A DNA stretch of 64,000 nucleotides from Amoebophrya sp. A120 (taxonomy: Eukaryota > Protista > Dinoflagellata), in assembly GCA_905178155.1 (NCBI GenBank), contig CAJINV010000001.1, positions 13,971,265 through 14,035,264 of the forward strand, in the 5' to 3' direction. The notes under the pieces were generated by a model. It saw only the letters and a list, made by a program, of their open reading frames with translations. It made no database searches and was not told the DNA's origin. This document shows, in pieces, positions 11,299 to 56,832 of the stretch; the stretch's first letter is position 1; each line of letters starts with the position of its first letter. The position numbers and the translations under genes were made by a program.

Positions 11299-11340
11299 GC
11301 ACTTGTGCGCCCTTTATCGTATGAAAAATGACAATCAGCA

Positions 11341-19184: not shown

Positions 19185-22100
19185 CTACTTCTTTTTGCCT
19201 CCCTTCTTTTTTGCGCCGCCCTTTTGCTTCGGTGCGCGTCCGCGGTTGCCCTTGTGCTTTCCTTTCTTTGCCTTCTTCTCTGCCTTTTTCTGACCGCGCT
19301 TGTCAGTTTTCATCCTCTTATCGACCACCTTGGATTTCGCGCCCTTGGTCGGCTTGCCCTGCGTGACATTCCTGCTGCCTCCGGCCTTTCGAATGGCCAT
19401 GTAGGCCTGCTTCTTGCTACCCTCCTTCTGCTATCAAATGTAAAAGTGTCTGGGTCTGGAAGAATGCAATTTGTGATGCTGCATTTGGATTCCAAAAAAA
19501 TCTGTATTGCATGAGTACCAAAGGGAATGCAATTTTTGCTACGCTAGTAGTAGTAGTAACCATTTAACTCCTGGCGGGTTGGCGTTAGAACAGATTTAGC
19601 CTTTGTTACGCTGAGAAGGCATTTGTCATGCGGAATAGGCATCAAGAAGCCTTCAAAAAATCTGTATTGCTAGGGTATGCATCACAGACATCATGGCTCA
19701 TGCATAACGTGCATGACAAATCTCGCATTCTTCCAGACCCAGACATTTTTACATTTGATATCTGCGCTTTTCGGAGCATCTTCTCCATGTTTCTCGCTTT
19801 CGCTCCGGCGCTCATTTCCGTGTCCGCAGCCAGCTGCTTGGCCTGCTTCCGCACCTTGTCCATTCTCTGCTGCAGCCGCTTTTTGTTGCGCGCGTTGGCC
19901 TCGGCGACCTTCCGGATGGGCCGCTGGTTGATTTCCTTCAGCTTGGCCCGGTACTGGTCCATCAGTTCCTTGGTCACCGGGAGCTCTGGCTTGTTGTACT
20001 TCTCTTCGTCCTCCACAAACCACTCGGGCAGATCCAATCCCTCGTCGTCCCACGCGTACCGGTTGTACGCACTATCGAGGAGTGCCATGCGCGACTTTTT
20101 CCGGATCATCATCGACCCCAGGGCCTGCACGGCAGCCAGCTCCTTCTTGTCGGTGGGGGCCTGGTGGAGAAGTGGATTTTTGAAATGCAAATCACATAAA
20201 TATGGATCAATTTCAATTTCAATCAGTAGAAACAATCCAACGCCTCTGGTCACGGCGGCTCGACTAGCCTACAAGCGAACAGACTTAGAATTCAGTGAGA
20301 TGTAGTTGTCGACAAAAAGATGATCGGAATGAACGCACCACTTTTGAGCTATTTCATAAAAATACCTTCAGATGGTCCGGCACGTCTGCTGCTTTTCCGC
20401 GCAGAGATTCCTGCCCCGGCAGTAGGATGTTATCCATCTCTTCGTCCAGCCGTCGCTCCACAACGTCGAACTGCGTTTTGTCGTCGAGACTGCTTGCTGC
20501 AACAGCACTTTCGTCCTCGTCGACCACCTCCTCGCCGTCCGGACCGACAATGCCCGACTTTCTCTTTCCCTTGCCTGTCAGACTGCCACCGATGTTTTGC
20601 GCCGCCTTCCGCGCCTCGCGCTCCTTTTCTTTCCTCTTTTTCAGTTGCCGCTTTTTCTTGTCGCAAAGCGGGATGTGCGGGAGCTCGTCGTCGGACAGTG
20701 CCTTGATCGACTGCTCGTCTCCGCTGTTGTCCGCATCAGAATCGGATTCATTTCTGGAAGTAAGAATGGCTTTGCTCTGATTTTGATTCTCCCGTCCAGC
20801 AGTACTTTTTGAGGAAGAAGAAGCTGCGGACTGCTTTGCTTTCTTCCCCGCGGCTGCAGCTACGGAGGCCGACGCGGTGGTCCCCGCCGTCGCCAGGCGC
20901 TTCTGCAAACTGCTGAACAAGTCCTGGGAGAACCACCTCTCCGCCCGAACTTTGTCCTTCGTGCTCATAGTACCCCTTTCCTCGTCTGCTGCATCTGCTG
21001 TTGACATCGCTTCGTCGTCGCTCAAGTCCATAGCATCATCTTCGGCCGCGGTGGAGATCATCGCTTCTTCCTCCTCGCCGTCGCTGTCTAGCTCGTCAGT
21101 CAACTTCGGCTTCTGGTTTGCCGCCGCAGCGTCGCCAGCTGCGTCCTCCTCGTCGTCCTCAGAGTCGTCGTCGTCATCAGAGTCGAACTGCTCCCGTTCC
21201 TGGTGCTGTTTCGCAGCTTCCTCGTCGATTTCGTGGTTGAAGTGGTTCATCTCCCCCGCCCATTCGCGGTACTTCTGCTGCCGCCGGGTTTCCTTCTTCT
21301 GCTTCAGCTCGCGGCCCTTGGCGGCTTGCGACAGTTTGCTCTTCTTCTCGCGCATGGCGAGAATCTGCTCCGCCTCCATGTCGGCTAAGCGGTTCAACTC
21401 GGCGATCTCCGGGTCGTCGGAATCCTCTTCGTCGCTGTCGGAATCATTTGTATTTTTCGATGTTGCTGTGGTCTCTTTTCGGTCCTCCGCCGTTTCGAGT
21501 TCTTGTGCAGCTGCTTCCGCCTCGTTCATCTTCTCCTCGTCATCGCTGTCCATTTGCCCACCTGCGCCGTTTTCGAAGTCTCCAAAGTTTTTCGGCGCTT
21601 GTTGGAACAACTCCGCGTCGTGGGTGATTCCGGAGTACCGCATACCCATCGACATCTTCTTGCGCCACTCGAACTTCTTCTTCAACTCCCGGGCCTTCTT
21701 CGCCTCGCGCTTCTCCTCCTGCTTCACCTGCTTGATCATCGCCTCCAGCTCCTCATCCGCGTTTTCGAATTTCACCTTTTTCGTGCTGCCGGTTGCTGGC
21801 TCGGCCTGCGAGTGAATACGGGTGAAAGTTCCAACATTGTGATAAACATGAAGCAATTTTTGCGCTTGCGACAGAGGCATAGTAAGAGTGAATGCTCGCG
21901 ACCGCGAGGAAGTCGCGAGACATCAAATAAAAACACAACCACAAAGCGACAGAAAAGAACAAAAAGAGAGGAAAAGCCGAAGATATCATGGGTCGTCTTT
22001 ACCTGCTTTTCTTCCGCATCAGCCTCCTTTTCCGATCCAGATTCATCATCGCTCTTCTCTTCCTTGTCCACTTTGTCAATCGAGGTCTTCTTTTCCTTTT

Positions 22101-24033
22101 CGTAGTTTCTTCTGGTCAGCATGCGCCACTTGAGTAGCATGGACAATTCCCGTTTCCCCAACACTTTCAAATCGTCACAATACTCGCGAAGCTCGTCGCT
22201 TATCGTCAAACTTTCGTCGTCGCGGTACAACAGTTTGTGATGCGTAGTGAGGATCAGGGCTGGGCTTTGGTTTTTCACAAAATCCATCAGGCTGCACGTT
22301 CGCATGTCGTCTCCAGGCTCGTAACCACCTGCAGTTATATTGATATGAGGTTATTCGTGTTGTAATTTTTACTGCAGCTACAGCTACTAGACACGATGTA
22401 TTGTGACACGAGCACGACAGCGCTTGCAAAATGAATATGCGGTGTGGGTTTACAACTTTTTAGAGAGTCAAATGTTTATGCGGTCTCCGCGTTGCAGTGA
22501 TTTCGATCTTCTGCGACCACCATTCACATAGTAGATCTCTGTACCTCGGTGTTTCTTTGCTTGGTACTTCAGGAGGTCCATCAAGCTGGCCTGGGATTTC
22601 TTTTCCTTCGCCTCGCTGTCGACCGCCTCCATAAAGACCCATCGGGGATCGAAAAATTTCGGGTCCGTCTTGACGGCCTTGTAGTTTTGACACAACACGA
22701 AAATTTCCGCGGACACGTTTCGACTGGCCTGCGGCTTCGTTGCTTCCACCTTGCCGAACAACTGCTCGAACACCCACAAAAGCGAGGTGTAGTCCTGGGA
22801 GCGGAACACCTTCGTGACAAAGGTTCCCCCCGGACGCAGAATTTCGGCCGCCAATTTTGTCGCGTGCAAAACCAGCTCATTCTGCACGTATGCGTCGTGG
22901 GACCATGAACTACCCACGTTCGGAGCACCATCGTTCAGGACAACGTCGGCAGACCTGAGGGAACAAGATAGTGAATGAGAAATGGGGCAGGCATCAACTA
23001 TTCCAAAAATCTGACTGGATGAATCTGAATATGAAAGTCCCGTGAAAACATAAGGGTTCGCTTCTTCTAAATTTTGCAGATGAAGATGCAGATGCTTGCG
23101 CGCGATCTCATCTTGATCGCCCATGATGTATTCCATGAACAGGACCAATGAATTGATGTCGTACCTGCCCTCCAGTTCCTTTTTTATCAATTGTCGGCAC
23201 TTTGGCGTGGTGATGTCACACTGGATGCTATCCTGAGTAAAAACGTCCCCACACCAGAGTTGTAATGCAGATTTGCAAAGACAGGAAGACTTGTAATGCG
23301 CATCCCCATGAGAGCCATTCCCAATCGTGTTTTGGAATTTGTGATGCTGTGAACAGGATGAGCAGACGAATCTGTGATGCGGCTGCACTTGCTAACCTGC
23401 ACTACACTGCGGAGTGCAACTTGTCATGCGTGACTCACAAAACTCCTCGATTTGTGTTGCAAAATCCCCATCCTGACTCTGGTGTGGGTACGTTTTTACT
23501 CAGGATAGATGCCGGTGACACCGGGAATCGGTTTGATCGGACACATATCAAATGTAAAAGTGTCTGGGTCTGGAAGAATGCAACTTGTAATGCGCATTTC
23601 AGAACACAGAAAGATCTCTCATGCATAGGTAGCAAAAGCTGCCCACTTTCTGTCACCAGAATGCGGGATTTGTCACGCGGATTCGGCACGACGGAAGCTT
23701 CTCGGAACCTGTGATGCTAGAGCTTCTATGCCAGACCTTCTGTGTCATGCAAAAACAGCATGACTCTTCCAGACCCAGACATTTTTACATTTGATAACAC
23801 AGATCCAAGCAGAGAATCTTTGAGTTCCGGGGCATGTTCTTGGCAGCCACCTGACTCCACCCACCGGGGGCACCGCACAAATCCACACATACCCGCGCGT
23901 CGGAAAGGAAGTCCACCTTTTTTGCCAGCTGCACCAATTTGAACGCGGAACGCGCACGGTAACCCTGGTCCTTCGCGAGCTGGTAGTACTTATCCAACCG
24001 CTCCTTCCCGACTTTCTTCTTGGAGCCGCCCAT
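19185..24033 (-). CDS. SPB1: rRNA 2'-O-methyltransferase SPB1/FTSJ3, 8 exons, ~1048 aa
   Basis: [99 protein letters not shown]. Four GT-AG introns (23164-22955, 22544-22329, 22002-21806, 20365-20161) plus three TIR introns; spliced length 3147 nt. Confidence 0.97.
19432..19760. mobile_element. Family-A TIR introner in SPB1, 329 bp, TSD TCTGC
   Basis: TIR TATCAAATGTAAAARTGTCTGGGTCTGGAAGAATGC; TCTGC at 19427-19431 and 19761-19765; removal gives [20 protein letters not shown]. Confidence 0.95.
23229..23507. mobile_element. Family-B TIR introner in SPB1, 279 bp, TSD GATGC
   Basis: 32-bp TIR TATCCTGAGTAAAAACGTMCCCACACCAGAGT (one mismatch); GATGC at 23224-23228 and 23508-23512; removal gives [17 protein letters not shown]. 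Confidence 0.95.
23546..23796. mobile_element. Family-A TIR introner in SPB1, 251 bp, TSD ACACA
   Basis: Family-A TIRs at both ends; ACACA at 23541-23545 and 23797-23801; removal gives [15 protein letters not shown]. Confidence 0.95.
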
Positions 24034-25606
24034 GGTGTTCGTGTTGCGGATACGATTACGTGCGTGTGCTTTAAAATTGACTGAAAGAAACGGCAACAGA
24101 TTGTCGTGTCAGCGTATCTCTACATCAATGACAATGCGTAGATGAAAATGAAAATGGCGTTACTTCTTAATAAACTGCCAGTACTGGTGCCACACCCAAG
24201 AGACTCGGCGCTATCAAGTGAAAGTACACTACTTTGTGTGCCAGGTGACCTTATTCTTCGCAGATGTTTTCCACTGTACGAAGACACCTGCTTTTTTGAA
24301 ATTGATTCGCGAAGAGCTCTTGAATATGTCGTAACAAGATTTTCATCTTCACATACATGGTCGCGTCGGATCGGGATCGGCTGCAGGCATGATGGTGATC
24401 ATTACAGGGCATAAATGACTCCGACATCGACCATGATGAGCTCTGCATGATGTAGTTGTGTAGAGAAGCTCTTTGTGTTGATCTTGACCTACTGGCGTCC
24501 GCCTTTTTGTCTGATCCGATAGATTGTATGTAGCTGTAGGTTTTGAACAAGGTCGATCTCTGGTTCAATGAGATCGATTCTCTTTTTCTTTTTGATCATT
24601 ATGTGCCCGAATTTGCGAGGTGGTTCTCCATTCACACATTTCTAGATCGCTTCGGATCGGGATCTTCATCATCATCGCCATGCAATACGCTTTGCACACG
24701 TACTCGTACAAAGTAGAAGTGTATTTACTTGTCGATGTGCGTAAACATCAACTTGCCGCGGAGCAGAAATGAAATCCGCAGAACGTTTCATCTGGTGAAA
24801 TTTCAACGTTTCAAAGCTGAATAAATACCAAGGAAGTTGTGAACAAATGCATCATCATGAGTCCAGCGACGATTTCGCTGCCATCTTGCTCTGCACATCT
24901 GGCTGCGTTTTTTTTTTTTGGTACACCAATCGTACATCATCTCCGTCAATTATGCAAGGAAAAATGCTTTCCATCTCAGTGTTTCTTTTTTTTCTTCATT
25001 GCATCACCTCCACTGTGAGTGTTTCTTTTTTCCTGGGACCCAGGATTGAGAAAACAGTGACTATTTTCTAGAGAGACAAGAGTAAGCACAACTTCTATCA
25101 CCTTGTCATAAAATTGCAGCGATCTAGATTTTTGTCTTCTCATCATGCATACCATGGAGTGCATGCGCATACTGTTAAAAAAATCCGGACCGTTCAACGT
25201 CTGTCGCTTTCCAAATATTCACCGCGATAATGGCGGCATCGTAGAAAAAGCTAACTGACACAGCTATTGCATGCTGTGGATTTGTGTCTATGTAGTCGTG
25301 AAATCGTGGCAATTCCCTTGAAAGGCTTGCTTTCTCTTCACACTTCTAGAGTTACTGGAAAGCGAAGTGCAAGAAAAACCAAAAGGCCAAAGCCAAAAGC
25401 CTCAAGCTCCTAGGTCTCTCAAGAGGGTAGAACTGTACAAGTGCTTTCACACTTCGCGCCTTAACTCGAAAGCTTGCTTTTCGTACTGACAGTTCAACAC
25501 TGAATGGTACAACGAGAACGAACTCAGACTCAGAGGCACAAATGAACTTGGAAAGTGACCACTTTGATTAAACTCAATCCATGAGCCGGTCCATCACATG
25601 ATAGCG

Positions 25607-37330: not shown

Positions 37331-40300
37331 TTAGAGTTCGAAGAAGTTCCAGACACACACGCTCGCGTCAGCGCCGGTCGTGACGATTTGTCGCATGTCG
37401 GGTGACCAGACAACGGACGTAACCGGCCCGGAGTGCCCCTCGAGCTGCGAAATCTTTTCGCTGGTTTCTAGATCGAAAACGAAGAGAAACCCGTCCTCAC
37501 TTCCGGCGGCGACATACTGCCCGCTCGGCGAGACTTCCACGCAGAGGTATTTGCAATTTCGCTCGTGGAAGCAGCCCACCGGATCTGCCACGTCAATGTC
37601 CCAGAAAAGAAGGCGTCCGTCGAGACCTGCCGAAAGGAGAGCATTTGTTTCTTTTCAAAGACATTTACCAAGAGCAAGGAGGACCACGCACACATATTAG
37701 CATAAGCAGAGGCAGTCGCTGCACTGTACTAAACTTCTGCTATCAACAACATCATGGGATTAGTTTCCTTCTACCGCAGCTGACGACTTCGCGTTCACAG
37801 TCTTTCCTCTGCGACAGTCCGGTCACGTTGCTGTTGGGCGTTGTTCGCTGCACGATAGACTTGTTGAGTTTGACGTCGTACGTGACCTGAGTATGTTGTA
37901 GATATAATTTCTTGATGCCGTGCCACTGGAACATCCCCGAAGTGGTAGGTGGAAACATGAAACTCGGGCAAAACCGAAGACAAAACCACAGGTACAAAAC
38001 TAGCTGTACGATGAATCTGTCCTCGCTGCCGGAGTGGAAGAGGTGTGGTCTCTCGATGTCGAGTTGCAAATCCGTAATGGGTTTCCTGTGCACGTTATCA
38101 AATGTAAAAATGTCTGGGTCTGGAAGAATGCGCGATGTGTCATGCAGCTTTTCTATGACCCATGCGGTCTGGAATGCAGGACCTAGCATGACAGATTCTG
38201 TGCGATCTTTCTCATGCCTATCCTGCATGAGAAACTGCCTCCCGACTTTGTCAGAACTGGACGACTTTTGGTAATCATGCAACACAGATTTTTGCATGCT
38301 TCAGATTTAGCATGACAAGTTCGCATTCTTCCAGACCCAGACATTTTTGCATTTGATACACGTGGTACTGCGCCAGTAGTTCTCTGGTTCTTCGGTGCCA
38401 CATATCCAGGAAAAAACACCCATCCCCATCCAATTTGTCATGCAAAACGTGCATAATTTCCACTATTTGTCATGCAAAAAATGGACAATAGACAATAGAC
38501 ACCCAAAATAGCTCGTAGAACCCTGTCAACTTCCACCAAGTGAAACATCACTGGTGAGGTGAGCCCAGGGCCCCTGGAGGTGAGAAACGAGGGTGGCACC
38601 TATAGTCGACCATACCAACTGGTCAACCAGGAAATGAGGAAGTGGGTAAGGAACACAAATGTCCCGGGATAACAAAAACTGAATATCCCGCACAACCTCT
38701 GCCAACCACTGCCCTCGAATTCACAAATGAAAAGGCTGAAAGCCAATTCAACTCCGGCTACTCTTCCCGAAGCAAGCTCAACCACCTCCCACCAAGAGCG
38801 AGCAACGGGGCAATGCCCTGAGGGACCGTTGAGAATCTCCCCAACGCAAACGTCATATAGCTTCAGCTCTAAGAGGCTGGCTGACGAATGAAAACGCACA
38901 CCTCCGGCTGCAGCGGCACAGACCAGAGGGGCAGGGGCATAGGAAGAATCGAACCGCACAACCAACTCGACCCAGGTAACCCAGAGAACCAAGGCCCTGG
39001 AACTCTGGGGACCAAGCACAACAGGAGGAGCAAAGCAAGGAAGGAGGAAAACCACCAGTCAAGAAGCACAACGGGCAGCAAGGTGAAGATCCGCAGCAGT
39101 CCGAAGACCACCCGATCTCAGGGCAACACACCTTGAAGCGCGAGGCCGCGAGACCTGCCGAACGCCTTGAAGGAAACCCCAGGGTCCAAGCGAACGACGA
39201 TGGCAAACCACCAACCCGACCTACTACCCGAGTGTGCCGGGGACGTGGAATCAGACAGGGCAGGATTATCACGCAACGGGAGTCACCCACCAAATCCTAT
39301 CCACGACCTCACTGAGATGGAGGCGAGAACGGTCTTGCTGGAGGGGAAACTGGCGAAGTATGTTGACCACACCACCGAACACTCACACCCGCTAGTCCGG
39401 AAACCGCCTCCCTGCAACAGATCGCAGCCGCACGACGACGAGCACCCGCGAAGGTCTGGAGCGCAGGCATATAAGTACCGACCACATAGCGGGCATCTTT
39501 ATATCAAGGCTGACCTCTCGCATTTGGGAGGCCGCGCCGCACACATTTGGGGGCGATCGGACCAGGGCTCATTTGGCCCTGCCTCAGCCTTGATATAAAG
39601 GAATAGCATAGCGAAAGATTCCAGCCGTCTGCGACGTGGAGTTGATGGCCACGACCGGCGAATCCCCTTGGACATCCTGCGGCCGGCACTTGTCGCACAC
39701 TGTAGATCACTGCAACCACAACAGATCTCGAGGAACCACCGCGCCGTAGGCAGGAGAAGCTGTGTCCAGGCCCGATTTGATCACACCGACAAGCCGCTGC
39801 AACACGAAGCACCCTCTGCAGGCAAAGGCGTCACAAACGTAAAACGAGGCCGGAGCCAGCGCAGACGGTCCGAGTACGATGATGAGCCTGAGATCAGTAT
39901 TTGAGTATTGGGCACTTAGAATGAGAGGAGATCGCAAAATATGTTGCGGACACCGCTATCCACAACCAGAACAGCTAGAAGCGAAGCAAGCAGGTTCAGA
40001 GACATGCAAATGAAAATACGAATTTTTAAATTTAATTTTAATGCATGAAAAACAGGAAGCAAAGAAGGAAAATATGGTAAGAGTCCCTGATCTCCCAAGC
40101 AACAGGGCGCTCCGCTAGTGTGCGCGGCATCCTCGTGGACCGGAGATGGAAACGCGCCGGCAATCCGCGACGAGTGCTCCGACCCCAACGCAACGCGCCA
40201 GTTTGCGGATTGTATCTGCCGATCGAAAGGCTAGAGCGCATCGCCACTGATGCGGAGCTGTCCCCTTTGCTTCGTTACGCTACGTGTGACCGAGGAGAGA

Positions 40301-42764
40301 AAACGCGTCGCGTAGCTTGAACGGCATTTCCAAGCGAAGGAAGCGCGTGTTGATTTTACAGGTCACTCCAAGAGGAGGAGCTCGCGCAGAGCCGACCCGT
40401 ACTCCGAGATGAAGAAGTCGCGCAAGTTACTCTGAGAGGAGAAGCTCGTGCTAGGTAAGCCCGCATTTACTCCGAGAGGAAAAGCTCGCGCACGTTACTC
40501 CGAGAAGGAGAAGGCTCTCGCAAGTCAAAATGCTCGCCGCCGCTGGTGACAGAAGAAGAACCGGGCGAAACACCCGCCGGCACCACCGAAGCATTTTGCG
40601 CACGTGCGCGCTTCAGGTGGAGGGCAGATGATTCCTCATTTTTGTTTTGTTTTGATTTACTAGGAAATTGGATGGGTGTTTTTTCCTGGATACCACACGC
40701 GACAATAGCAGTCTTCACCGCCAGTCACGATGAACTGGGCCCATTCCTTAATTGCCGTGATCTTCCCCCGGTGGGCATTGGCGATTTCCCAACTCGGCGC
40801 GATGTTCTGCGCGCGTCTAGACAACCGGAAAGCGCGCATAAAGCTGTCCTCGCACCCGACCAGAATCTCGTCCTCCACCTCGCTGACACAGGCGCAGAGA
40901 ATCGGGCTCTGTAGTAGAGTAGTAGAGTTGGTATGTTCATACTCATAGCCTCGCCCGGGGCTGTCAAAGCAATCGTAGGTAAAAACGATGCTCGACATGA
41001 TCAAATAAACTACCCGACAAAGCAGTTGCACTACGTACACGTAGCGTATTAAAGTGCGCTCATACCTTTATTCTGACGCTCTGCAAATGCGAGTAGTCGG
41101 AAAGGTCCCAAAGAAACATCTCCCCGGCGGTGCTGACGGTGACCATAGCTTCGCTGTCCTTTGCCCCAAAGCATGCCATTGCTGCGTCAAACTGTGATAT
41201 TCAAACGATTTTTGTTGTGGAGGTTCGAAGACATTAGATAGAGGCTGCAGTTGTGAGAGTCATGCTCATGCAAAACTACGAGGCATGCGCAAATCCAAAT
41301 CCTGATGCTGAGGCGAAGAAAAAAATCATACTGTGTGCGCTGCGGAGTGAAGCGTTGTGGTCAAATCCTTCGTCAGACACCTCCAGAGTTTGCCGTTCTT
41401 GGTGCTAACCAAAACCTCTTTCGCGTCCGCACTCAGAGTGACGCTCACGCAGGGGGCTTCTAGTATATTCTCGACGGTCATGTCCCAATGAGTCTGGTTT
41501 CAAATTTATTTTTTCTCTGTGTATCATCTTCGACAAAGAGGACATTGGCATGGAAATTGATTATACGGCTCGATTGACCTTCACCTTCGCACTCTCTCTC
41601 TCAAAAGCGATGGTTTTTGTTTTGCAGAAGTGAAAAACATAGTAAAGCAGGTGCTACTTCAAAACTTACATCTGAGCCCTTGACTCGCTTGACTTTTCCG
41701 TCTCCTCCAGTGAGAATGATTGTCGTCTCGTCCAGCATGGTCATTCCAGTTACGCCACCGTTGACGATCGGCAAGGAGCAGCGGAATACCCTAGGTTTTG
41801 TTTGGTTGGAGTCCTGGTCGCTAATTAGTGGACCGAAGAAAAACTGCACGAAAAGAATGCATCATTATCGATCGAAAAGTAAAACGCACTTGTTGGTCAA
41901 GTTGAAGACGCAGAGGTCGCCTGCCGCAGTGCCGGTGATTAACTGGTCCCCCTGGATGAGGCCGCACGTGTGTTTTCGATGAAGCCCCGAGGGTGGGAGC
42001 TGGAACTTCGCCGTTTCCAGCAAGTAGCTCATTGATCGGATGTCGAAGATCAAATCGTGCATCAGGACCTCGGACTCGTACGTGGTGCACAGAAGGTAGC
42101 TTGGGTATCGATTATTGGCATTTGGGGGAACCACTTCGCCCCAACATACCATGTGGCAAACCGTCTCGGTTTGGCGGTCGTATCTGGGAAGGTGAAAGTT
42201 GTAGGAATCGATGGTTCAGCTTCACTCCCGCGCATTATAGCAGTCGAGCTGGACCTTTTTGAAAACACAACCCCATACTCATCAACGAGTACATCATTGC
42301 GCAACAAGCACCATATACACGACTTCCCCCGTTGTGACGTCCCAGATTAAGATCCGCGCATTTGCGCCGGTGCCGCAGAGGAACCGTCCGTCGGGTGAGA
42401 AGGCTAAGCAGATCACGGATCCGGTGAAGCCACCAAAATCCTTGTAGATGGTTCTCTGTTCCTCGTCCCACACAATGACGGGGGCGATTTGCCCTTTTCT
42501 TCTCTCCGACCCCCGCTGCCCAGAGGCGATCATTTTTCCGTTGCGCGACGTGGTGATGGCGGAGACCTCCGCGTCGTGGGCACGGAGGAAGTCCTGGTTG
42601 TGAGGGTTCCGCAGATCCTCCATAACCACGCAACAACCCACCGGGTAGATGTAGACATCGCGTCTGGCTGGATGCAACACCACGGTGTTCGGAAACCGGT
42701 TCGTCAGCCCGCATAGGTGTTCGAGCTCCACGGCCGCCGCCGGCTTTTTCGTTTCCTCCGCCAT
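37331..42764 (-). CDS. WD40-repeat protein, CFAP52/WDR16-like, 10 exons
   Basis: ELEHLCG..VVLHP..IYPVGCCVV..QDFLRAHDAEVSAI..IASGQ N-terminus resembles CFAP52; multiple WD repeats to GHSGPVTSVVWSPD..VWNF. Seven GT-AG introns and two TIR introns all join in frame. Confidence 0.88.
38096..38358. mobile_element. Family-A TIR introner in the WD40 gene, 263 bp, TSD CACGT
   Basis: Family-A TIRs; CACGT at 38091-38095 and 38359-38363; removal gives ELLAQYHVHRKPITDL. Confidence 0.95.
38403..40692. mobile_element. Family-D long TIR introner in the WD40 gene, 2290 bp, TSD CCACA
   Basis: 23-bp perfect TIR TATCCAGGAAAAAACACCCATCC; CCACA at 38398-38402 and 40693-40697; removal gives TGGEDCYCRVWHRRTRELL. 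Confidence 0.93.
40370..40525. repeat. Imperfect ~28-bp subterminal repeat TTACTCCGAGAGGAGAAGCTCGCGCAAG (4-5 copies) in element D
   Basis: Copies near 40400, 40427, 40467 and 40495. Confidence 0.8.
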
Positions 42765-46400: not shown

Positions 46401-49221
46401 ATAGCATCTTCATCGACCCCAACTTCCAAACTCTTACAAAACAACAACAAGAAAAGTCAAAAGTTACTTCATCGAGTCGCAGAAGAGTTCCGCCGCACTG
46501 GTGGGGAGTTTGTGAGTCGCCGCCACATCGTGAAAATCCCGAGTATAACTTTCCCGGTCAGGGGGTGCTTCCAGTAAAGCGACGGCGCTGCTGAGAACGG
46601 TCGCGGGCTCGCCCGACGATTGCCGTGTCCCGGTGAGGTTCAAATGCAGGAAGGCGTGGCACGAGCTCCGAATTGACAGGAAGCTGTCTGAGGGCAACAC
46701 ACAGGCGAGCTGCGAGGTCAGGGGCGTTACCGTTCGTGTTGATGTCACTGCGTTGTTTTCAGCGGCGCCTCGCGGCGAGTTTACATCCTTGCTGTCCGGA
46801 GGAGTGAGATGCTTTGATGAATTTCCAGTACCACCAGTAATGGCCGCAGCGATGTTGTCGTCGTGTACAAAGGCCGGCTTCGCGGCCAGTATGGTGTGCT
46901 GCGGTTCGTGCATGGCCTCGATCCAGCCGCGCAACGAATCGGAGAGCCGGGAGCTCGAGCTTCCACTCTGCGCGTCGTAGTCCGCCTGTCGCTCGCGATA
47001 ACGCTCACACAAATCGTGCAGTATTCGCGACCGCGTGCTCGTCCCTACGACCGCCTCAGTGAGAAAGTGCTCCCATGCGTTGGATTCCAGAAACGACGCG
47101 ATCAGAACGCGGAGCTGCTGCGCATCGTCGGTGGAACTGACCAGGTGTGGGGGCCGAAGTTTCTCCAGAAATTTCTCGTCATCGAACGAGAAGCGGACCG
47201 TTTGGTTAGCCGCGGAACTCGGGCGCTTACCGGAGGAGGTGGTTTCCACACTTTTCACCAGGTAATCGCTGTAGTTCCAAAACAAACGCAGGGTGGCCTC
47301 CAAAAACGTCGCAATTAGCTTCGACCGGACACGCGTCTCGTCCTGGCTGCTGTTGCCGCGAAAGGAGCCGTCCGTGCGATCCGTCTGCGCTGCGGACGAC
47401 GGCTGAGAGGATTGAATTCAATTCATTCAAATTATACGTCAAAGGTTTATCGTGTGGGGGGCATAGTTACAGAATCAAGCTTTCATTTAAGTTGAAAAAA
47501 TTCTCCTACTTCTTGGTGACATGAAAAACACAAAAATAACGCATCAGAAGTTAATACTTGCTTCTAACCTCAGCGGGCGAGAGCGCCGGAGCGTTGGTGG
47601 TCGCTGCGTGGTTCAACAAGTGGCAGTGATTCCATTGGTTCTGCGCTGCGGTGCCGCCCGCCCCACTCCGTTCGTGCAACGCTGCGTTCCGGAGCTGCGC
47701 TTGAAAGAAGCGCAGGAAGCTCTCCGGGACGATAATTGGCATGCAGTCTTGGTACACACACGGCATGTTTTTGCTCGACGCGAACTCGTGCTGCTGCTCC
47801 CCCGCTTGCTGGTCTGCGGGCTGTTCTGGGTCCTGCTTGTTCATCGCGCTATTGCTCATAGCGTACGGAGCGTTAAAGGCCACCTCGTCGTTGTCCAAGT
47901 CGAACACCACGACGTCACTGGGACACGCCCGCACGATTGCCGTGATGCTGTCATGGTGCACGCCTACGAGGAAGGGGGTGGGGCATTCTAAAATGATCCA
48001 CATGTGCCGCGGCAGGGTCGGGATGTAGACGTGGTGCCACTGAAAGGGAAAGAGCAACGCCTTGACCGCTTCGGAGATCAGCGTGAGCAAGGAGAGCGAG
48101 CGCTTGGACGCGGCAAGCACGATCTTCTTCTCGGTGAGGAGCAGGAAGAACAGGTACACCAGGTTCTTCACGTTCAAACAGCCGAGTAGCGGCCGGAAGG
48201 TGAAGTCGCGGGCCAGCGACGCGGGGTCTAAGACGCTGTAATTCCGGAGGTGGTAGCCGAGCGAGAAGAGCGTCTGCGTGGACTTTGTGAAGGACAGCAG
48301 GTTGTTGTGCACGGTTGGGAGAGGGATCTCGTAGAGCAGATAGGCGAGGTTGTATGTGAGCAGGAAATCCCGTTGCTTGCCACCATCCTGCTGAAACAAC
48401 TGCTCCAGTTCCTGCATCACTGCAACTTGTTCACTATTCGTAGTACCAGTTGTACTTCTACCCGCGTGGTCCGAGGAACTGCGCTGATCCCGCTCCCCAG
48501 CCGATAGTGCGACTGCACTCGTGCTGGTGCTTCGCTTACTCGCACCCCCACCAGAAGCGGACGGCGTCGTGGCGAGACGCAGGAGTTCGGAGAGGAAATC
48601 CCGGCAGCCTTGCAGATACGGATATTTCGTGACCAGACAAATCGCTTTCGGCACGAACAGCGCGTCCGGGCTATCGGCCTGGTTCTCCGCCGTTTGCAGA
48701 CTCTGGTCGTTCTGTTCGTCTTCCGGTTGTAGCTCAATGAGGCTTCCATCGGCATCCCCACCGGTTCCGCCCCCACTGGTCGACGAGGACGCCCATCGCT
48801 TCAGGGATTGCCGGCGCCGCGAGGTGTACGGCAGCTTTTCGCTTTCGAAAGCCACCAAGCAGGTCACGTAGTAGTTGTCGTAGGTGGGCGTGGTCAGCAC
48901 GAAGCTGAACACGTAGGGCTCCAGGTCGGGTTTGCGCTTTGCCGAGGAGGCCGGAACGCCGCTGGGAAAGACGAAGTCAGGTATGTCCGGCAGCATCGGC
49001 GCAATGGGTCGGTCCGTGTAGTCTTTGCCGGGGAACCGGGCTTGCACCACAGGCTTGTACAACAAGCTCTGCTGTGCGTTTGAGCCGCCCCGCCGGCCCG
49101 CGGCTTTGGTCACCAAGGTTCCCTGGCCATCTCGTTGCAAACCGACAACCAGCAAGTAGTCGACCAGACGTTCTTCCACCGGTGATGGCGCGGCACTGGC
49201 GGACGAGGCGCCGCTCGCCAT
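43437..49221 (-). CDS. DENN-domain protein (Rab GEF-like) with long low-complexity C-terminus, 4 exons
   Basis: uDENN RLVDYLLVVG..RFP..FVFPSG..FSFVLT; DENN PKAICLVTKYPY, LLTEKKIVL, LLFPFQWHHVYIPTLP, LECPTPFLVG; dDENN-like ATFLEATLRLF. GT-AG introns join the four large ORFs in frame (~47568-47403, ~46467-46339, ~45629-45531). Confidence 0.88.
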
Positions 49222-49722: not shown

Positions 49723-52700
49723 TCAATCTTTCAGTTTGTAGTACTTCAGGGTTGCTGGGTCGTAGTAAACTCCAAGGAGAGGGTCGTACATTACCTCGAT
49801 GTAAGCGCCAGGATTTTGCTCCACCGCTCGGTCCGGCGAGGTTATCGGCACTACAGGCGGCGTAAAGGGACGCTTCATCTGATGGTACGGAATGTTATCC
49901 GGGTGGGAGTAGGACGAGGATGGTTCACTACCCGTTGACGCGGAAGCGCGGGGTTGGCTCCGCTGCTGTTCAAAAGCAAGTGAGCTGCGCGACTGCTGGT
50001 GTTGGAAAGCGCGAGAAGCAGTTGCTACTCCATCGGTTCCCTGCCCAGACTCCCGTTTGGGCGAGAAGGAGCGGGTACTTTCTGGTTCTTGCATAGACGG
50101 TGGGTCGCGTTTCATTTGCAGCTGCGGATGAACCAGCGGTTGACCAAAAGCAGCGCTGGCTGGCGCTTCACGCGCGGTTATTCTTGGGTCGGGTGGATCT
50201 ACTCCCGGCCTGTAGTTGTTCATATTGAGTTTGCTGAAAAACGAATGAAACTGCAAGCTCATGCAGACCCTGAGTAATGCTAATGCATATGCAAAACTCA
50301 GTACCAGTAGCAGTTCGTGCATCAGCATCACAACACGTTGAAAGATCAAATGATAATGAAGAGAATCGCGATTTTCCTTTAGTTGCTCAGTCGTACTAGT
50401 AACTTACCTGCCGCGTCCGCCGGCTGAGATGCTTGCGTGATTCGGCAAACCGGGACTCAGGTAGGTGTCCGCCGCATTTCGGGAGGCATGAATCGAAGAT
50501 GCTTCTTGCTCCGTTGTAAGTCCCTTCGTTGGAGAGGAGCGTGTCCAGTTGATGCCGGTGTCACGCTTGTCTTTTGGGTCCAGCTGCGTTGATTTTTTCA
50601 GATTTTCCATGCTGTAGCGAAACACCTCCTCGCTGGGCCCAAGCACAAAGTCGTCCTCTCCCGTAGTCCCGCACAAAACATTGGGTGTATCGGGAAGAAG
50701 CTCGTTCGGGGTGCTGGGTAAGAACCCGCCCTCTTGCGAGTACCGGGTGTTGGTTGCCGTGGGCACCAGCTTCGTGTTGCGATACAAACGAAACCCCTCG
50801 TCCTCCGGAGATAGCTCATTCGAGGGCGCAGACGCAGACGGCGACCGTTGCACCGCTTGTTGACCTCGTTTTCGCCGCTCTGGCGAATTCGTTGCCATGC
50901 TCGTTGTCGTTGCTGCTGGATTTGTACTGCTGGTAATATCGTGTCCTGATAGTGATATCTTGTTTGCGTGGTTTGCTGTGTCGGCAACCTTTGACGATGA
51001 CTCTCGCTGTTGCAAAAAACTCGTCGCTTCAAACTCGTTCCGCTCCGCTGCTTGCAACGGGTTGCCGTATTCTTGCACGTGCCTGTCCGGAGGTAGTTGG
51101 TGGTTTAGTTGTGTATGACTGCCAATTCCCCGCCCGACACGCTCTCCCTGCTTATTCTGACCCTGCTGTTGCTGCATTTCTTTGCTAGGTGGGGCGGAAG
51201 CTCTATTGCTTTGCCGAAGTGTGGTCTGTTCCTCTTTTCGAGCTACTGCAGCTACAGCACCATCTTCGTACGACTTTCGACCTTGCAAATTCCCCTGCGC
51301 GGCAGCCTGTTTGCGCGCTTGCATCTCTGCTCGCTTCGCGTAGAAATTCGTCGAGTGCTTTATCGAAGAGAGCATGGACGACGAGCTGACGCTACCACCC
51401 ACTTCCGCGTTCGGCGCATAAGAAAATCGCATGCGATCGACAGACGATTTCATGGGCGATGCGCTCTTTATCGGGGAAGCGGTCTTTTTCAGCGGCGAGA
51501 TGAAACCCGAGGAAGCTGAGGCGGATGGCACATGATTAGACCCCTTCAGATCCACCACGGGCCGGGTAGAAGTAGAGGAAGGCGCGGGCGCGACGTGCTC
51601 GGTAGACCGATGCGGATTGTGCAAGCTCGTTGCTGTCGTAGTGCTCGTGCTTGGGCCCATGTACGAGTATCGCATGTCCGCGCCGGGATGCGGATCCGTT
51701 GACGAAACAATTTCCGTCATGCTCGTCGAGATATGGCCGCGCGGCCGGCGTGTCGGCGAAACGCCGGAAGCGTGTCGCCGCTGTGTCAGCACTGTAGTCG
51801 TTCGAGCCCCCTGCTGCGAAGCTACTGCACTCGAGGTGGTCTTGTTGCCTGTAGTGGTCGGATTCCCAGTGCGTCGTTGCCCAGTAGCAGCTGCAGCCGT
51901 TGCCGTCTGTACTGTTGCCGGAGAGGGCGCAAGTTTTTCCACAATTGGTTCTATCATGAGCTCGTCAAAACCGTCATGCACAGTTGCTTTTTGCGGCGCA
52001 GAGACAGAGGTCGCTGCAGATGATACCAAGACTTCGCGATTGAGGTCGGGAGATGGGTCCGTTGCCCCCCGGTGTGACGATTGAGTAGTCATCTGCTCCG
52101 GCTGGTGGTCCTCATCCTCTAGCACTGGCGCGAGGATCGGTGCGAGGGATTCTTTGCTTGTCTTGTCCTGGTGGCTCGGCACTTCGTCAGCGAAACTGTC
52201 ACGAGACGCAGTTAATGAGGAGGAAAATGGAGGAACATTTGTTGCAGCGCCAACCTGTTGATCTGTTACGCCACTACTTCCGAACGTCGGACTAGATTGC
52301 GCATACAGCATCGGCATCCCGGTCGTCCGAAGCACACCAGCATTCGATGTGGTCGTCGCTGCAGGAGGGGCAACAGCATCGCTGCTCGCACCACTCATTC
52401 CGATTGCACTCATTGACGATATGGTGGCAGCGTTCGGCGGTACATTGAAGCTGTACCGCATAGACGACTGCGGTAGGGCTTCCAACGTCACATTCGAGTT
52501 CCGCCGTTTGTGCGGACTCATTTTTGATGCACCTTGGCCTGCATTGTTTCCTCCACCGCTCGTCCCTGCACCTGGATTCGGACCGTTTGTGGCGGACAGG
52601 CCCACAGTGACCGGAGAGATCGACTTTACGGGCGAGTTGGTGGAAGAATTGTGTGACGGAGGGGCTTTCATGTCTAGATCGCCGTAGTCTTCGTCCTTAT

Positions 52701-55700
52701 GGATAGTCGCCATCGCTGCAAGTGACGAGGAAGAGGAAGACGATGCAGCGCTGTTCCCAGACAGTACCGGCTGCTGCAGGTCTTGCAATGCTCCTCCTTC
52801 TCGGTCTGATGGAGGTTGTACAACTGTCGCAGGCGGCTGGTGGTGCCAGGGGTTCGAGGTCTGCACTCCACCTGCTGCGGTAGCACCGCGCGAAACCGCA
52901 GACGTTGTCCCCATTGGGTGCTTTCTCGCCGGCCCGCTGGAAGACCGACTCCCAGAACTACCCGCCACGACGCCACCGCTGACACTTGCCAAGTTCTTCG
53001 AAGTGAACGGCTGCTGCCCTGGCTGGTGGCCAAAGCTAGCTCCACCCGGCTGCCCCCAACCGCTCTTGGGGGTGGTGGTCGTTGACGACGGGTGGTCGAG
53101 TTGGGCGAGCTTTTTCTTGTGCGCCGGCACGAAGTTTTTCGTTCCCCGGGAGGAGGAGGACAGAAACGAGCTGTTGTTCGGCGTCGTTCCACCGCCACAA
53201 ACCCCATTACCGCCATCCGACAGGTCGAGGCTGCTGTCGTGCGTGCTGCCGTCGATGAACGAGCGCTCGATCGGGGCGTTCTCGTGGATAAAACTCGCCT
53301 CGTGGCTCGCCCCGCCCGGCGTCCCCGAGGAGTCGCTCGCGTAAAGCGAGGCCGAGTAGAACCCCGGCTGGTTCCCGCGGGGGCCGCCGCTGCCGGCGCC
53401 GGGCGTCGGCCCGGACGTATTCAAAGCAGCACTCGTGTTCGCCGCGGTGGGCGTGACGCGCTCTATGGACGCAGACCGGTCGCGCTGCTGGCCGGCGCGA
53501 GCAGGGTTCTGCTGCTGGTCCGCTGTTGTCTGCTGCTCCATCGATCCGCGATGCCGCGCCCAGGTCTGCTGGTCTGTGTCCAAGGGTTGCAGCCGGTGGC
53601 GCGTACTGCGTGGCCCCGACCACGTGTTCTCCAGCACGTCGGTAGGCGCGTCGCCGCGCTCCTTGTTTTCGTTCTTGGCATTGAGAACAAAGTCTCCCCT
53701 CGCTGTCGGCACCCGCAGACCAGACCTGATGAAGCTTATATTCTTCTTTTGCTACGTATCATGGAAAACATATTATTTTTTCGTCTTCTCATCAGGATCA
53801 GCAAAACAAAAACATGATCGTGATCGAAGTTATTTCAGACTGTTTACGATTTCGTGGATCGGTTCTTGCTTAGCATGAGTCCTGAGGTGGTGTGGTGCAG
53901 CTTGTGTTTGCTCCCCTGCAGCTGTTCCTTGTCCGCCGCTGCGGAGCCGGAATCGGCCCACGCGTTCGTTTGTCGCAACATCATGTGTGGGGCGCCGGAA
54001 CCACGGTCGCTCGACAGAGATCGTTTGTTCTTCATGCGCTGCGTCGAGTGGTGGTCCGCCGCACTGGCGGTACTTGTCTCCAGCAAGATTAGCGAATCCT
54101 CTTCACTTCCACGCCGGCTGCGCCGTGTCGCGGTGGTCGAGCTTCCCTCTTTATCGACATCCTGGGCCGGAAGCTGAGTTTGCGAATTTAAGTTGAGGAG
54201 CATGCCGCAGGAATCTTTACAAACACGAATGCGCTCTTCTACAACTAGATTGCAGGAGGAAGATCAAGATCAACGGAGAATCGAAAGAAGTTTGAAAACT
54301 GTAGAAAATGAGCAAGAGGTTGCTGGAGCTGCAAACAAGTAGCAGCAGCCAGGCCATTGGAGATAGAAGTACGCGATTCTGCAGCGAATTCCTGGATGCG
54401 TGCCGGCGTTTTTGTTTCGCGGCATAACTGGTCGAAGGCGCAGCTGAAGCGGTGGGCTCCACCCCGGGAGCACCTCCGCCCCGGACCAACATCTCCTCGT
54501 AAGAGAATTCGTCTGCAGCTGGGACGTTGGTGAGGGACATCTGCGAGATGTCCAGCAGCTGACTCGAAGCGGCATGCTGGTCCCCAGCCGCGTGCTGCGC
54601 TTGCTGCAACGGGAATGCAGCGCTGGAGGAACTGCTTCCCCCTGCTGTAAGAGTTCCTGTTAGGTGTAACGCAAGCGGCTGTTGCGCGTGGCCGAGCGTC
54701 GCTCCACCGGAGGCGGATGCAGGCCCCCCGCCGCGACCCCTCGTGCGGAGCTGCTGCGTCTGCGTTAGTGTTCCGGTGTTGTTCAGCAGCGATGGCACAG
54801 AAGATTGCGACTCCTTACTCGATGAGGTAGAGGTTGTTGGCGGAAATTTGTTTCCTGCCCCCTGGCCGCCGTTTTGGTCGGCTGCAAAGGACGTATTTTG
54901 GAGCTCGTGCAATTGTCCCTGCTGGAAAAACAACCCGTTGACCAGAACTGTCGCCGATGTCACGCTTTGCGCCGGAAAGTCCAGGCTTTTTGGTATTTTT
55001 TCCGCGAAGGAGCGCAGGGTGATATCCTGTGCAAAAGTATCGTACTCGTATAAATGCTACCGCTTTTTTTTGCATGAAGTCACTTCGAAGTTGGTGGGAG
55101 GTTGTTGGGAAGTCGGTGGAGAAGTTCGTGAGAAGTCGGCGCCGAAGTTGGTGCGGAGGCCCGTGAGAAGTGGCGGGACGTGTTGGCGTCGTCATCGCCC
55201 CGGCCGAGTGCCGCGGCACGGCACTCCGCCGTGGCGAGTTCTGTCCCCCTCGCTGCTTGCAGCTGCAGCTGCAAGGGCTGGAAAGAACTGCGCTACAGGT
55301 AAATAGAAAGACGGCAACTGCCACGCTTTTTATTTATTTGCAGCGCTGCTCGACCAGGTTGCGCGACGGCTCCACGCACGAAAACGTATAGAAGATGCGG
55401 CAAAAGTTGCGTCTTTGATGGCTGCACGCACAGACGCCTCTCTGATGGTTGCGCGCGCGCGACGATGTGGCGCTGCACGTCGCAGAGGCGCGGAAGTTGT
55501 TCACGTAGTCTCAATTGCAGCACTACGTATAAATCAGCAAAGTCGATTGATTTCGTAACTAATAATAAGAAGGCTTTGTTTTCTTTTGCCAAAAAACGCA
55601 GTTGTGCGTGACGCCTACACGTTATATGACATTTTTTCCTACGATACTTCTCAACAACCTCTCAACAACTTCCAAACAACTTCCTCCCCAACATCGCTAC

Positions 55701-56832
55701 GAACATCCGACCAGCTTCGTAATTTTTTAAAGGCTTCATGCAATTAATTTTTATAGGAAGGTCTGCTCTCCCAAATTAATTGCGTGACGCCTCCAAAAGA
55801 TCACTTGCAGGAGCCCGCAAGCTTTTAGCAGCAAGAGGCGTCCGAGCCTCCACACGCGGAGGCGCGGCCGAAGTATGCACAGCCAAACTAATTCGCGACT
55901 GCGCACGCGGTGGCGGCCACGAATCGAGCATAAAGAAATTGGCGCTCCTACAATTCAAATCCGCACCAATGCCCAGAAAAAACCCAGCCGCCGACTTCCG
56001 CCAACTTCTCAACAACAGCTGGGAAGTTGGTGAAAAGGTTGGGGAGAAGTTGGTGGGAAGTTGGTTAGAAGTACGCGAGAAGCTGGCGAGAAGTTGGTGA
56101 GATGTTTGATGCAGAAAAAAGCGGGATCTATACGAGTACGATACTTTTGCACAGGATAGGTGAAGATTTTGCGCAATTTGCACTCCTGACTGATGGAAAT
56201 CAGATCGAGCGATTTGAACTGCACACTCGGACCCCAGGCGTTCCTCAAAACGCTCGGCAGGTCGATGCACAGGTTGATCCACTGACCGCGCGGAACAGGC
56301 TCCGTGCAGCCCTGGACGGGAAAGCGGGCGTGTAGGGGATTCACACTCTTGTCCTTTACCGCATGGGAGAACGCAACGCGACGACGTGTCTTGCTTCCGT
56401 CCGTCACACCAAGCTCCAGGGTGAAGGTCCGATCCTTTTGGACGTCCTGATAGTAGGTGGGTTGGGTCTTGTTCTTGTTTCGCATCACTCAGATAATTTC
56501 TCGGTTGCGTGTATGTCTCGTTCGAACGAAGATTTATCGTTTACATTCATACACTTACCAGCAAAGAACGCCTGTGATACTACTCGTACCTCGCAAAGTA
56601 GCAACTGGAAGACCAAAATCGGCTGAAAAAGCTGCAAGCTTCTGTTCGCGTCTTTGGGTAGCTGAAGGCTCGGTGACGTGGCACTCTGCGAGGAGTGGTA
56701 GATGTAGCCACGAATGGCCTTATCGTAGACTCGCTGGACCGTCGGCGCGACCTTCCACGATACCGTCGGATTCGAACCCTGGGTCGTCAAAACCTCAAAG
56801 GATGGTCCTCCTTGATAAGCTTTGTCAAACAT
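49723..56832 (-). CDS. CFAP20DC: CFAP20 domain-containing protein (C3orf67-like), multi-exon
   Basis: N-terminus MFDKAYQGGPSFEV..QPILVFQL..FTLELGVTD..RRRVAFS..WINLCIDL..CKLRKIFTL and C-terminal YDPLLGVYYDPATLKYYKL motif; low-complexity middle (53712-50404). The internal junctions of the 3' exons are only approximately resolved. Confidence 0.87.
55023..56158. mobile_element. Family-C TIR introner in CFAP20DC, 1136 bp, TSD GGTGA
   Basis: 30-bp perfect TIR TATCCTGTGCAAAAGTATCGTACTCGTATA; GGTGA at 55018-55022 and 56159-56163; removal gives CKLRKIFTLRSFAEKIPKSLDFP. Confidence 0.95.

What the first reader, a model, noticed from the sequence alone, without database searches (positions are those of the whole stretch)
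19427..56163. Four TIR families share one end code (TATC-N6-AAAA...GATA, 5-bp TSD) and behave as GT-AG-independent introns
Seen: six intact elements (19432-19760, 23229-23507, 23546-23796, 38096-38358, 38403-40692, 55023-56158). Their TIRs begin TATCAAATGTAAAA, TATCCTGAGTAAAA, TATCCAGGAAAAAA and TATCCTGTGCAAAA, and their six TSDs all differ (TCTGC, GATGC, ACACA, CACGT, CCACA, GGTGA). Deleting the element plus exactly 5 nt restores conserved protein each time, and no register within the TSD gives GT-AG, GC-AG or AT-AC. Knowledge: non-canonical introners with inverted and direct repeats are reported for Amoebophrya, and their removal mechanism is, to my knowledge, unresolved. Inference: one transposase lineage makes 5-nt staggered insertions, and a matching machinery recognises the paired UAUC/GAUA stem and removes one TSD equivalent. 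This could be structure-guided RNA splicing or precise DNA excision.
Basis: partly seen in the sequence, partly recalled or inferred. Interest (0 to 1): 0.92.

Follow-up and report, generated by a model that had tools for sequence, protein, structure and literature searches.

The report
Amoebophrya transposon introns, one fixed cut
These are the already published transposon-derived introns of the plankton parasite Amoebophrya A120. Transcript-like contigs lack them exactly although most offer no normal splice signals, and three aged copies together point to one cut position (1 base before, 4 bases after the element), likely set by an altered splicing machine.

Summary
In detail: six elements with terminal inverted repeats (TIRs) and distinct perfect 5-nt target duplications (TSDs), none with a GT-AG, GC-AG or AT-AC register. 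The DNA is Amoebophrya sp. A120. Farhat 2021 already reports these introner elements, including the TAT-N7-AAA end motif and 3-5-nt direct repeats. A spliced contig lacks E1-E3 plus 5 nt each, while a DNA-like run keeps them. The public A120 protein matches +5/+5 removal of E4/E5. E6 is untested in RNA. Two of them skip a GT-AG pair one base away. In a second assembly 210 of 262 elements have a 5-nt TSD, both orientations occur in genes, and base 4 is not always C. Best reading: RNA splicing by a relaxed U2-type spliceosome (about 0.6); rival, Euglena-like non-spliceosomal removal (0.27). DNA excision is unlikely. This scan noted the same rule on other A120 windows. I did not find the register in print.

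The parts
19432..19760 (-). E1, family-1 TIR element in SPB1-like gene; TSD TCTGC; intron under -1/+4 would be 19428-19761 (AT..AG)
   Evidence: X1 contig 3 joins 19761 to 19426 (334 nt = element+5)
23229..23507 (-). E2, family-2 TIR element in SPB1-like gene; TSD GATGC; CT..AT under -1/+4
   Evidence: removal inferred from contig arithmetic (94 nt = 33 + 61)
23546..23796 (-). E3, family-1 TIR element in SPB1-like gene; TSD ACACA; TT..TG under -1/+4
   Evidence: contig piece ends at 23797 and the same arithmetic
38096..38358 (-). E4, family-1 element in WD40 gene, inverted relative to E1/E3; TSD CACGT; GT..GT under -1/+4
38403..40692 (-). E5, 2290-nt element; first ~83 nt match 109-112-nt family members; TSD CCACA; GT..TG under -1/+4
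55023..56158 (-). E6, 1136-nt element at the end of a CFA20 domain; TIR shared with 135-154-nt copies; TSD GGTGA; CT..AC under -1/+4
   Evidence: frame restoration only, no RNA or protein-model check
14103..14295 (-). E7, old element with diverged TSD (2 of 5); allows cut offsets -1, 0, +1
   Evidence: X3 contig 22 joint 14096->14295, skip 198 = 193+5
11315..11493 (-). E10, old element with decayed TIRs; allows offsets -1 or 0; GT-AG pair at -1/+3 not used
   Evidence: 30-letter loose end of X3 contig 21 before 11494
12249..12500 (-). E11, old element with decayed TIRs; allows offsets -1 or -2 only; GT-AG pair at -1/+3 not used
   Evidence: X3 contig 21 joint 12244->12502, skip 257 = 252+5
11036..11298 (-). 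E8, family-1 copy whose left (plus-strand) end is not a proper TIR end; the transcript leaves the window after an 11-nt exon at 11299-11309
18976..24293 (-). SPB1-like host transcript (3616-nt contig) lacking E1-E3 and its canonical introns
37331..42764 (-). WD40 host gene (public A120 protein P0001, 630 aa); 39-nt exon between E5 and E4
56159..56488 (-). CFA20-domain exon upstream of E6
   Evidence: PF05018, E 3.6e-13

Best explanation
These are Amoebophrya A120 introner elements: short TIR elements flanked by a 5-nt duplication that transcript-like contigs lack together with exactly 5 nt, likely cut 1 base before the first TAT and 4 bases after the last ATA by a likely relaxed U2-type spliceosome that no longer needs GT-AG. 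Shown: anatomy, exact removal (E1, E7, E11 as joints; E2, E3 by arithmetic; E10 by a loose end), retention in a DNA-like run, near-random 5-nt targets, both orientations in coding sequence. Inferred: that one register (-1/+4) holds for all copies. Under it the intron starts N-U-A-U, sharing +2 U and +3 A with the window's canonical donors, and ends U-tract-N7-A-U-A-NNNN, the acceptor being measured from the terminal ATA, possibly a branch A. Because the box is the same at both ends and 1+4 = 5, any insertion in either orientation would restore the pre-insertion mRNA. Inferred and untested: that a spliceosome does this, where it branches, and that one DDE transposase family mobilises all families in trans.
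For: Exact removal alongside canonical introns in contigs with 0 other letters. Allowed offsets E7 {-1,0,+1}, E10 {-1,0}, E11 {-2,-1} intersect only at -1. Canonical donors in the window begin GTAT/GTAC (3 of 3 RNA-backed introns checked), and all three old copies read GTAT at -1. Only 7 of 165 perfect-TSD copies in the second assembly could use GT-AG (19 of 165 any canonical pair), and family-1 copies lie 38 vs 26 in the two orientations, 18 unclear (strand inferred from codon usage). Arm positions 4-7 often mismatch while TAT and AAA stay, which fits sequence boxes better than a perfect helix. Farhat 2021 found 83 of 89 spliceosome proteins plus U2/U4/U5/U6 in A120, but no U1 and no minor spliceosome. 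Fritillaria gives a precedent for a spliceosome adapted to TIR-derived introns (review passage).
Against: The register rests on three copies from two contigs of one run (X3) of one sample; E10 rests on a 30-letter loose end; different copies could use different registers. A GT-AG pair one base short of the cut is ignored in E10 and E11, which is odd for a spliceosome. A 23-37-bp TIR helix would bury both splice sites in young copies. Drift to G at -1 is not reproduced in the second assembly (3 of 10 with TSD match of 3 or less, 2 of 17 with 4, 28 of 96 perfect). No lariat, branch point or snRNA evidence was obtained. No transposase was found.
Confidence: 0.6

Rival explanations
1. Non-spliceosomal, structure-guided RNA removal as proposed for euglenid nonconventional introns: the paired ends bring the exons together and a nuclease/ligase cuts at fixed distances (1 nt and 4 nt) outside the TAT/ATA pair.
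For: All young copies fold into a long terminal helix. No terminal dinucleotide is needed and an available GT-AG is ignored. Euglena's rule is also a paired motif with asymmetric spacers, N3CDG...CHGN5-6|R (abstract). In E7, 7 of 8 transition mismatches are G.U on the sense strand. U1 was not found in A120.
Against: The G.U bias is not general (118 G.U vs 136 A.C in 203 copies). E10 and E11 pair for only 6 and 4 bases at the stem base yet are removed. The -1 cut recreates the U-A of canonical donors.
Confidence: 0.27
2. No single rule: each copy is spliced at whatever weak non-canonical sites are nearby, and the common -1/+4 is a coincidence of three copies.
For: [quoted passage not shown] Each old copy alone allows 2-3 registers.
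Against: All six RNA-checked copies lose element+5 exactly. An aligner cannot place a cut inside an identical TSD, which would by itself produce the published variability. Unchecked notes on other windows give the same register (leads only).
Confidence: 0.08
3. Precise DNA excision (transposase plus microhomology repair, or programmed elimination) creates empty alleles that are transcribed.
For: TIR+TSD anatomy of DNA transposons. Contigs drop rare variants, so rare empty sites cannot be excluded.
Against: The DNA-like run X5 has unbranched contigs running from flanks into E1, E2, E3 (11275-19455, 19737-23255, from 23773) and across E7, E10, E11. Old copies with decayed TIRs and 2 of 5 TSD matches are still removed with exactly 5 nt, cut outside the TIR edges. 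The same contigs lack ordinary GT-AG introns.
Confidence: 0.03
4. The loci are disrupted or silent and intact paralogues supply the protein.
For: None found.
Against: Spliced contigs match the window's exons with 0 other letters, and the public A120 protein is read across E4/E5.
Confidence: 0.02

Closest known systems
Introner elements / non-canonical introns of Amoebophrya sp. A120 (Farhat et al. 2021, PMC7789003; read abstract, passages, end of section 10 to 12, sections 16 and 25, supplement legends; figures not seen)
   Same: Same organism; IR motif 'TAT, seven less-conserved nucleotides, at least three As'; direct repeats of 3-5 nt with a 5-bp example; 29,850 repeated introns in 1954 families; RNA-supported; hairpin; mechanism open.
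   Different: The paper leaves the cut position relative to the hairpin variable or unknown and calls its most abundant A120 repeats 4 nt. Here the repeat is 5 nt in 210 of 262 copies and the cut fits -1/+4.
A120 introner families in Gozashti et al. 2025 (PMC12130899; passages, SI legends, 21 of 58 A120 rows of dataset file 8; files 13-14 not searched)
   Same: Most of the rows seen are classed TIR DNA, with many non-canonical splice sites and TSD calls of 2-5 nt (5 on manual inspection).
   Different: No fixed register in what I saw. The four TIR starts were not found as text in the 12 files searched, so families could not be matched.
Euglenid nonconventional introns (Nomura et al. 2025, PMC12501133, abstract; review PMC11282704, passages)
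   Same: Non-GT-AG introns with paired ends, TSD-like repeats and cuts at fixed asymmetric distances from a paired motif; machinery unknown.
   Different: Different motif (CDG/CHG, spacers 3 and 5-6, purine after the 3' cut) and lineage; here TAT/ATA with spacers 1 and 4 and no base requirement seen at the cuts.
Fritillaria borealis non-canonical introns (review PMC11282704, passages; primary paper not seen)
   Same: TIR/TSD-derived introns removed by an adapted spliceosome.
   Different: Fritillaria keeps preferred ends (AG-AC, AG-AT); here all 4 first bases and all 16 terminal dinucleotides occur.
IS3EU/GingerRoot DNA transposons (Kojima, PMC10045372, passages; author name recalled)
   Same: TA..TA termini and short TIRs.
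   Different: Their TSD is usually 6 bp; here 0 of 262 copies have a perfect 6-nt repeat. No transposase was found to compare.

Membership tests
Amoebophrya A120 introner elements (Farhat 2021) | Lies in the A120 genome | tested here: met
   Exon 42310-42764 is 100% identical to an NCBI protein named Amoebophrya sp. A120
Amoebophrya A120 introner elements (Farhat 2021) | Terminal inverted repeat starting TAT, N7, at least three As | tested here: met
   12 of 12 ends of E1-E6
Amoebophrya A120 introner elements (Farhat 2021) | Direct repeat of 3-5 nt at the exon/intron boundary | tested here: met
   6 of 6 perfect 5-nt repeats
Amoebophrya A120 introner elements (Farhat 2021) | Removed from transcripts with non-canonical ends | tested here: met
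   E1-E3 by an RNA-like contig; E4-E5 by gene model only; E6 not tested; no canonical register
Amoebophrya A120 introner elements (Farhat 2021) | Repeated in the genome | tested here: met
   4 family-1 copies in the window; summed contig depth 9e4-2e5 on bins holding an element vs 24-46 elsewhere in X5, not a copy number; E1-E6 each hit 4-153 of 262 elements in a second assembly
Non-autonomous TIR DNA transposons (MITE-like) | TIRs, fixed-length TSD, no coding capacity | tested here: met
   210 of 262 perfect 5-nt TSDs, 187 distinct; no Pfam hit in the 11 frames of 90 aa or more inside E5/E6
Non-autonomous TIR DNA transposons (MITE-like) | Cognate autonomous transposase | tested here: inconclusive
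   None in the 32 frames from long TIR pairs of the second assembly; no whole genome held
IS3EU/GingerRoot | TA..TA termini | tested here: met
IS3EU/GingerRoot | 6-bp TSD | tested here: not met
   0 of 262 with a perfect 6-nt repeat
IS3EU/GingerRoot | IS3/IS481-like DDE transposase | tested here: inconclusive
   No transposase domain found
U2-type spliceosomal introns | GT/GC-AG ends | tested here: not met
   0 of 9 window copies under -1/+4; 7 of 165 could use GT-AG in any register
U2-type spliceosomal introns | Lariat with 2'-5' branch; dependence on U2/U5/U6 | not testable with these tools
   No raw reads of this strain were available; contigs cannot show lariats
Euglenid nonconventional introns | N3CDG...CHGN5-6|R signature | tested here: not met
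   Ends under -1/+4 are N-TAT...ATA-NNNN versus the abstract's signature
Euglenid nonconventional introns | Release as circular RNA | not testable with these tools
   Needs RNase R / intron sequencing

The most novel reading that the evidence does not exclude
A120 runs a second splicing code, N|TAT...ATA-NNNN|, with no fixed base at either cut. It is read by a U1-less or non-spliceosomal machine that measures from the transposon's own symmetric end box and overrides a GT-AG pair one base away. Any insertion of this transposon lineage, in either orientation and at any target, becomes a scarless intron, possibly even when nested inserts make it many kilobases long.
Probability: 0.55. Interest if true: 0.8.

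Novelty: already known. Interest (0 to 1): 0.52.

Why it matters
The elements and their end motif are published, so the finding as written is not new. The open part is how they are removed. A fixed -1/+4 register would turn the published 'variable' splice sites into one rule, explain why TSD length (5) and cut offsets (1+4) make insertions protein-neutral in both orientations, and say exactly where to look for a branch point (the A at -7 or -5 of the intron) and for a partner snRNA or protein. That makes a stated open question directly testable with existing RNA-seq plus lariat sequencing.

Tried and rejected
No whole genome was held, so no genome-wide scan of A120. No listed holder is on record as RNA; X1-X4 are treated as RNA because their contigs lack canonical introns, and they are one sample. 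X2 and X4 gave no exon cover in 10400-16700. G.U-on-sense selection, suggested by E7 (7 G.U vs 1 A.C), was rejected as a general rule: 118 vs 136 in 203 of 271 copies with a strand call. Drift to a GT donor in old copies (3 of 3 in the window) was not reproduced. At TSD position 5 the upstream base was a purine in 9 of 9 mismatches: too few to use. My first preferred register 0/+5 was rejected by E11. My first idea that E8 sits in a canonical intron 11031-11398 was rejected by contig 21. Transposase search: no relevant Pfam hit in 11 frames in E5/E6 or 32 frames in long TIR pairs, of which 6 of 8 lack a perfect TSD and are probably mis-paired ends. No TIR match in viral contigs. No Rfam match in the window. 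No Atlas hit for ORF 685-3522. The second assembly's loci share only element sequence with the window, so no orthologous empty sites could be compared. Literature searches gave no paper stating a register; Roy 2023 and Henriet 2019 were not seen, and Farhat's Figs 3 and S19-S25 are images I could not see and may bear on this.
Full report
1. Observation. The six elements lie at the stated coordinates. Their arms are identical at 19-20 of 20 bases and their six perfect 5-nt flanking repeats are all different. The window has 6 TIR pairs with a perfect 5-nt repeat; 100 simulated windows had none. Removing element plus 5 nt leaves an open frame at each junction, and none of the product-equivalent registers within the TSD gives GT-AG, GC-AG or AT-AC. 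The hosts, all on the minus strand, are an SPB1-like gene (FtsJ and Spb1_C domains), a WD40 gene and a CFA20-domain gene.

2. Organism and prior art. The first exon of the WD40 gene is 100% identical to an NCBI protein of Amoebophrya sp. A120. Farhat et al. 2021 (PMC7789003) report for A120 that the inverted-repeat motifs start with TAT, followed by seven less-conserved bases and at least three As. They also report direct repeats of 3-5 nt, 29,850 repeated introns in 1954 families, 83 of 89 spliceosome proteins, and no U1 or minor spliceosome. A supplementary legend shows a 5-bp example. [quoted passage not shown] Gozashti et al. 2025 (PMC12130899) list 58 A120 introner families; most of the 21 rows I saw are classed TIR DNA with many non-canonical sites.

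3. Removal from transcripts. Run X1 holds a 3616-nt contig that matches the SPB1 exons with 0 other letters. It joins 19761 to 19426, i.e. E1 plus exactly 5 nt. Its unlisted middle stretch is 94 nt, equal to 33 + 61, which is what removal of E3 and E2 with 5 nt each predicts. The contig also lacks ordinary GT-AG introns, which is why I treat X1-X4 as RNA although the tool only guesses so; they are one sample. In the DNA-like run X5, unbranched contigs run from the flanks into E1, E2 and E3; contigs can drop rare variants. For E4 and E5 I have no RNA lay. The public A120 protein matches the junctions only for +5/+5 of 81 combinations, 8 orthologues are ungapped there, and the gene models were transcript-guided. 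E6 has frame restoration only. Raw RNA runs X8 and X9 covered only element sequence and are uninformative.

4. The cut register. E7 (14103-14295) is skipped as 198 nt = 193+5 in X3 contig 22 and allows offsets -1, 0 or +1 from the first TAT. E11 (12249-12500) is skipped as 257 nt = 252+5 in contig 21 and allows only -1 or -2. E10 (11315-11493), read from a 30-letter loose end of contig 21, allows -1 or 0. The only common register is 1 base before the element and 4 bases after it. E10 and E11 each offer GT..AG at -1/+3, one base short and frame-shifting, and the contig does not use it. Under -1/+4 the nine window introns have the ends AT-AG, CT-AT, TT-TG, GT-GT, GT-TG, CT-AC, GT-TG, GT-GG and GT-GT. 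Limits: three copies, two contigs, one run; a single register is the parsimonious inference, not a demonstration. I first favoured 0/+5. Unchecked notes of this scan on other A120 windows give -1/+4 and made me re-examine the 12244-12502 joint, which excludes 0/+5.

5. A second assembly. A pattern scan returned 149 loci (486 kb) of another assembly that carries the same families; they share only element sequence with the window. Of 262 unique TAT-N7-AAA pairs, 210 have a perfect 5-nt repeat, 243 match at 4 or more of 5, 1 has a perfect 4-nt repeat and 0 a perfect 6-nt repeat; 187 of the 210 TSDs are distinct. Base 4 is C 386, G 121, T 15, A 2. A scan that did not demand TAT still gave TAT/AAA at both ends in 205 of 280 pairs. 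With strand inferred from codon usage (203 of 271 copies), only 7 of 165 perfect copies could use GT-AG and 19 of 165 any canonical pair. Family-1 copies lie 38 vs 26 in the two orientations, with 18 unclear. In the window, E4 is inverted relative to E1 and E3. Results against my leads: no G.U-over-A.C bias (118 vs 136), although E7 alone shows 7 vs 1; no excess of G at -1 in diverged copies (3 of 10, 2 of 17, 28 of 96), although all three old window copies have it. Arm positions 4 and 7 are unpaired in 92 and 114 of 203 copies.

6. Mechanism. Insertion: TIRs and a sequence-independent 5-nt TSD indicate a DDE-type transposase acting in trans (established knowledge plus inference). No transposase domain was found in 11 frames of E5/E6 or in 32 frames of long pairs. 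TA..TA ends recall IS3EU/GingerRoot, but their TSD is usually 6 bp, so membership is not met. Removal: RNA-level, because the DNA-like run keeps the elements and copies with decayed TIRs and 2 of 5 TSD matches are still cut precisely, outside the TIR edges. I favour a relaxed U2-type spliceosome (0.6). The -1 cut gives N-U-A-U, sharing +2 and +3 with the window's canonical donors (3 of 3 checked). The 3' end reads U-tract-N7-AUA followed by a measured 4 nt. The spliceosome is present without U1, and Fritillaria is a precedent. The main rival is Euglena-like non-spliceosomal removal (0.27): the same logic of a paired motif with asymmetric spacers, favoured by the ignored GT-AG pairs and the long helices, disfavoured by the weak pairing of E10 and E11. 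No lariat or snRNA evidence was obtainable. E10 and E11 keep TAT and ATA but have lost the AAA box in one or both arms, hinting that TAT/ATA matters for splicing and AAA for transposition; two copies only.

7. Verdict. What I did not find in print (searches; Farhat's figures, Roy 2023 and Henriet 2019 not seen) is the fixed -1/+4 cut and the bypass of adjacent GT-AG pairs. These make the open mechanism testable. Interest 0.52.

Noticed in passing
window 11036-11309: After an 11-nt exon (11299-11309) the transcript contig continues into sequence absent from the whole window, so E8's partner end lies outside: an intron of more than 11 kb with nested inserts, or an assembly misjoin at the repeat.
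   Followed up: partly
window 8381-9156: A different TIR element (23-nt perfect arms, not TAT-type) with a 6-nt direct repeat and internal 12-nt tandem repeats; no hit among the 262 elements of the second assembly.
   Followed up: partly
window 682-5035 (-): Long frames (946 and 508 aa) with only a sub-threshold or no Pfam hit and no Atlas hit for the first; may belong to a large insert next to E8.
   Followed up: partly
window 23508-23540, 38359-38397, 11299-11309: Micro-exons of 33, 39 and 11 nt between neighbouring elements; each element still has to be paired with its own end, even between same-family copies.
   Followed up: partly
window 14103-14295: E7's arms differ at six consecutive positions (4-9), all G.U-compatible on the transcribed strand; not a general pattern.
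   Followed up: yes
window 38403-40692 and 55023-56158: E5 and E6 share only their ends with 109-154-nt family members: long parents or short elements carrying 1-2-kb inserts.
   Followed up: partly
loci L001-L149: 21 of 280 TIR pairs with 5-nt repeats start TAT but have TCA or CAC at positions 11-13 instead of AAA: further end types. L063 4790-5761 and L041 3862-4492 look like nested elements with perfect TSDs.
   Followed up: no
window 17170-18427 (-): KH-domain gene (PNO1-like; name recalled) with an RNA-backed canonical GT-AG intron at 17586-17808.
   Followed up: partly
window 47554-49221 (-): DENN/uDENN-domain gene; 43-54 kb holds long exons without TAT-type elements.
   Followed up: no
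run X8 on window 19729-19762: About 100 RNA reads of a family-1 copy from another locus in a sample that does not cover this window's exons: the family is present, and retained in RNA, in what is probably another strain.
   Followed up: no
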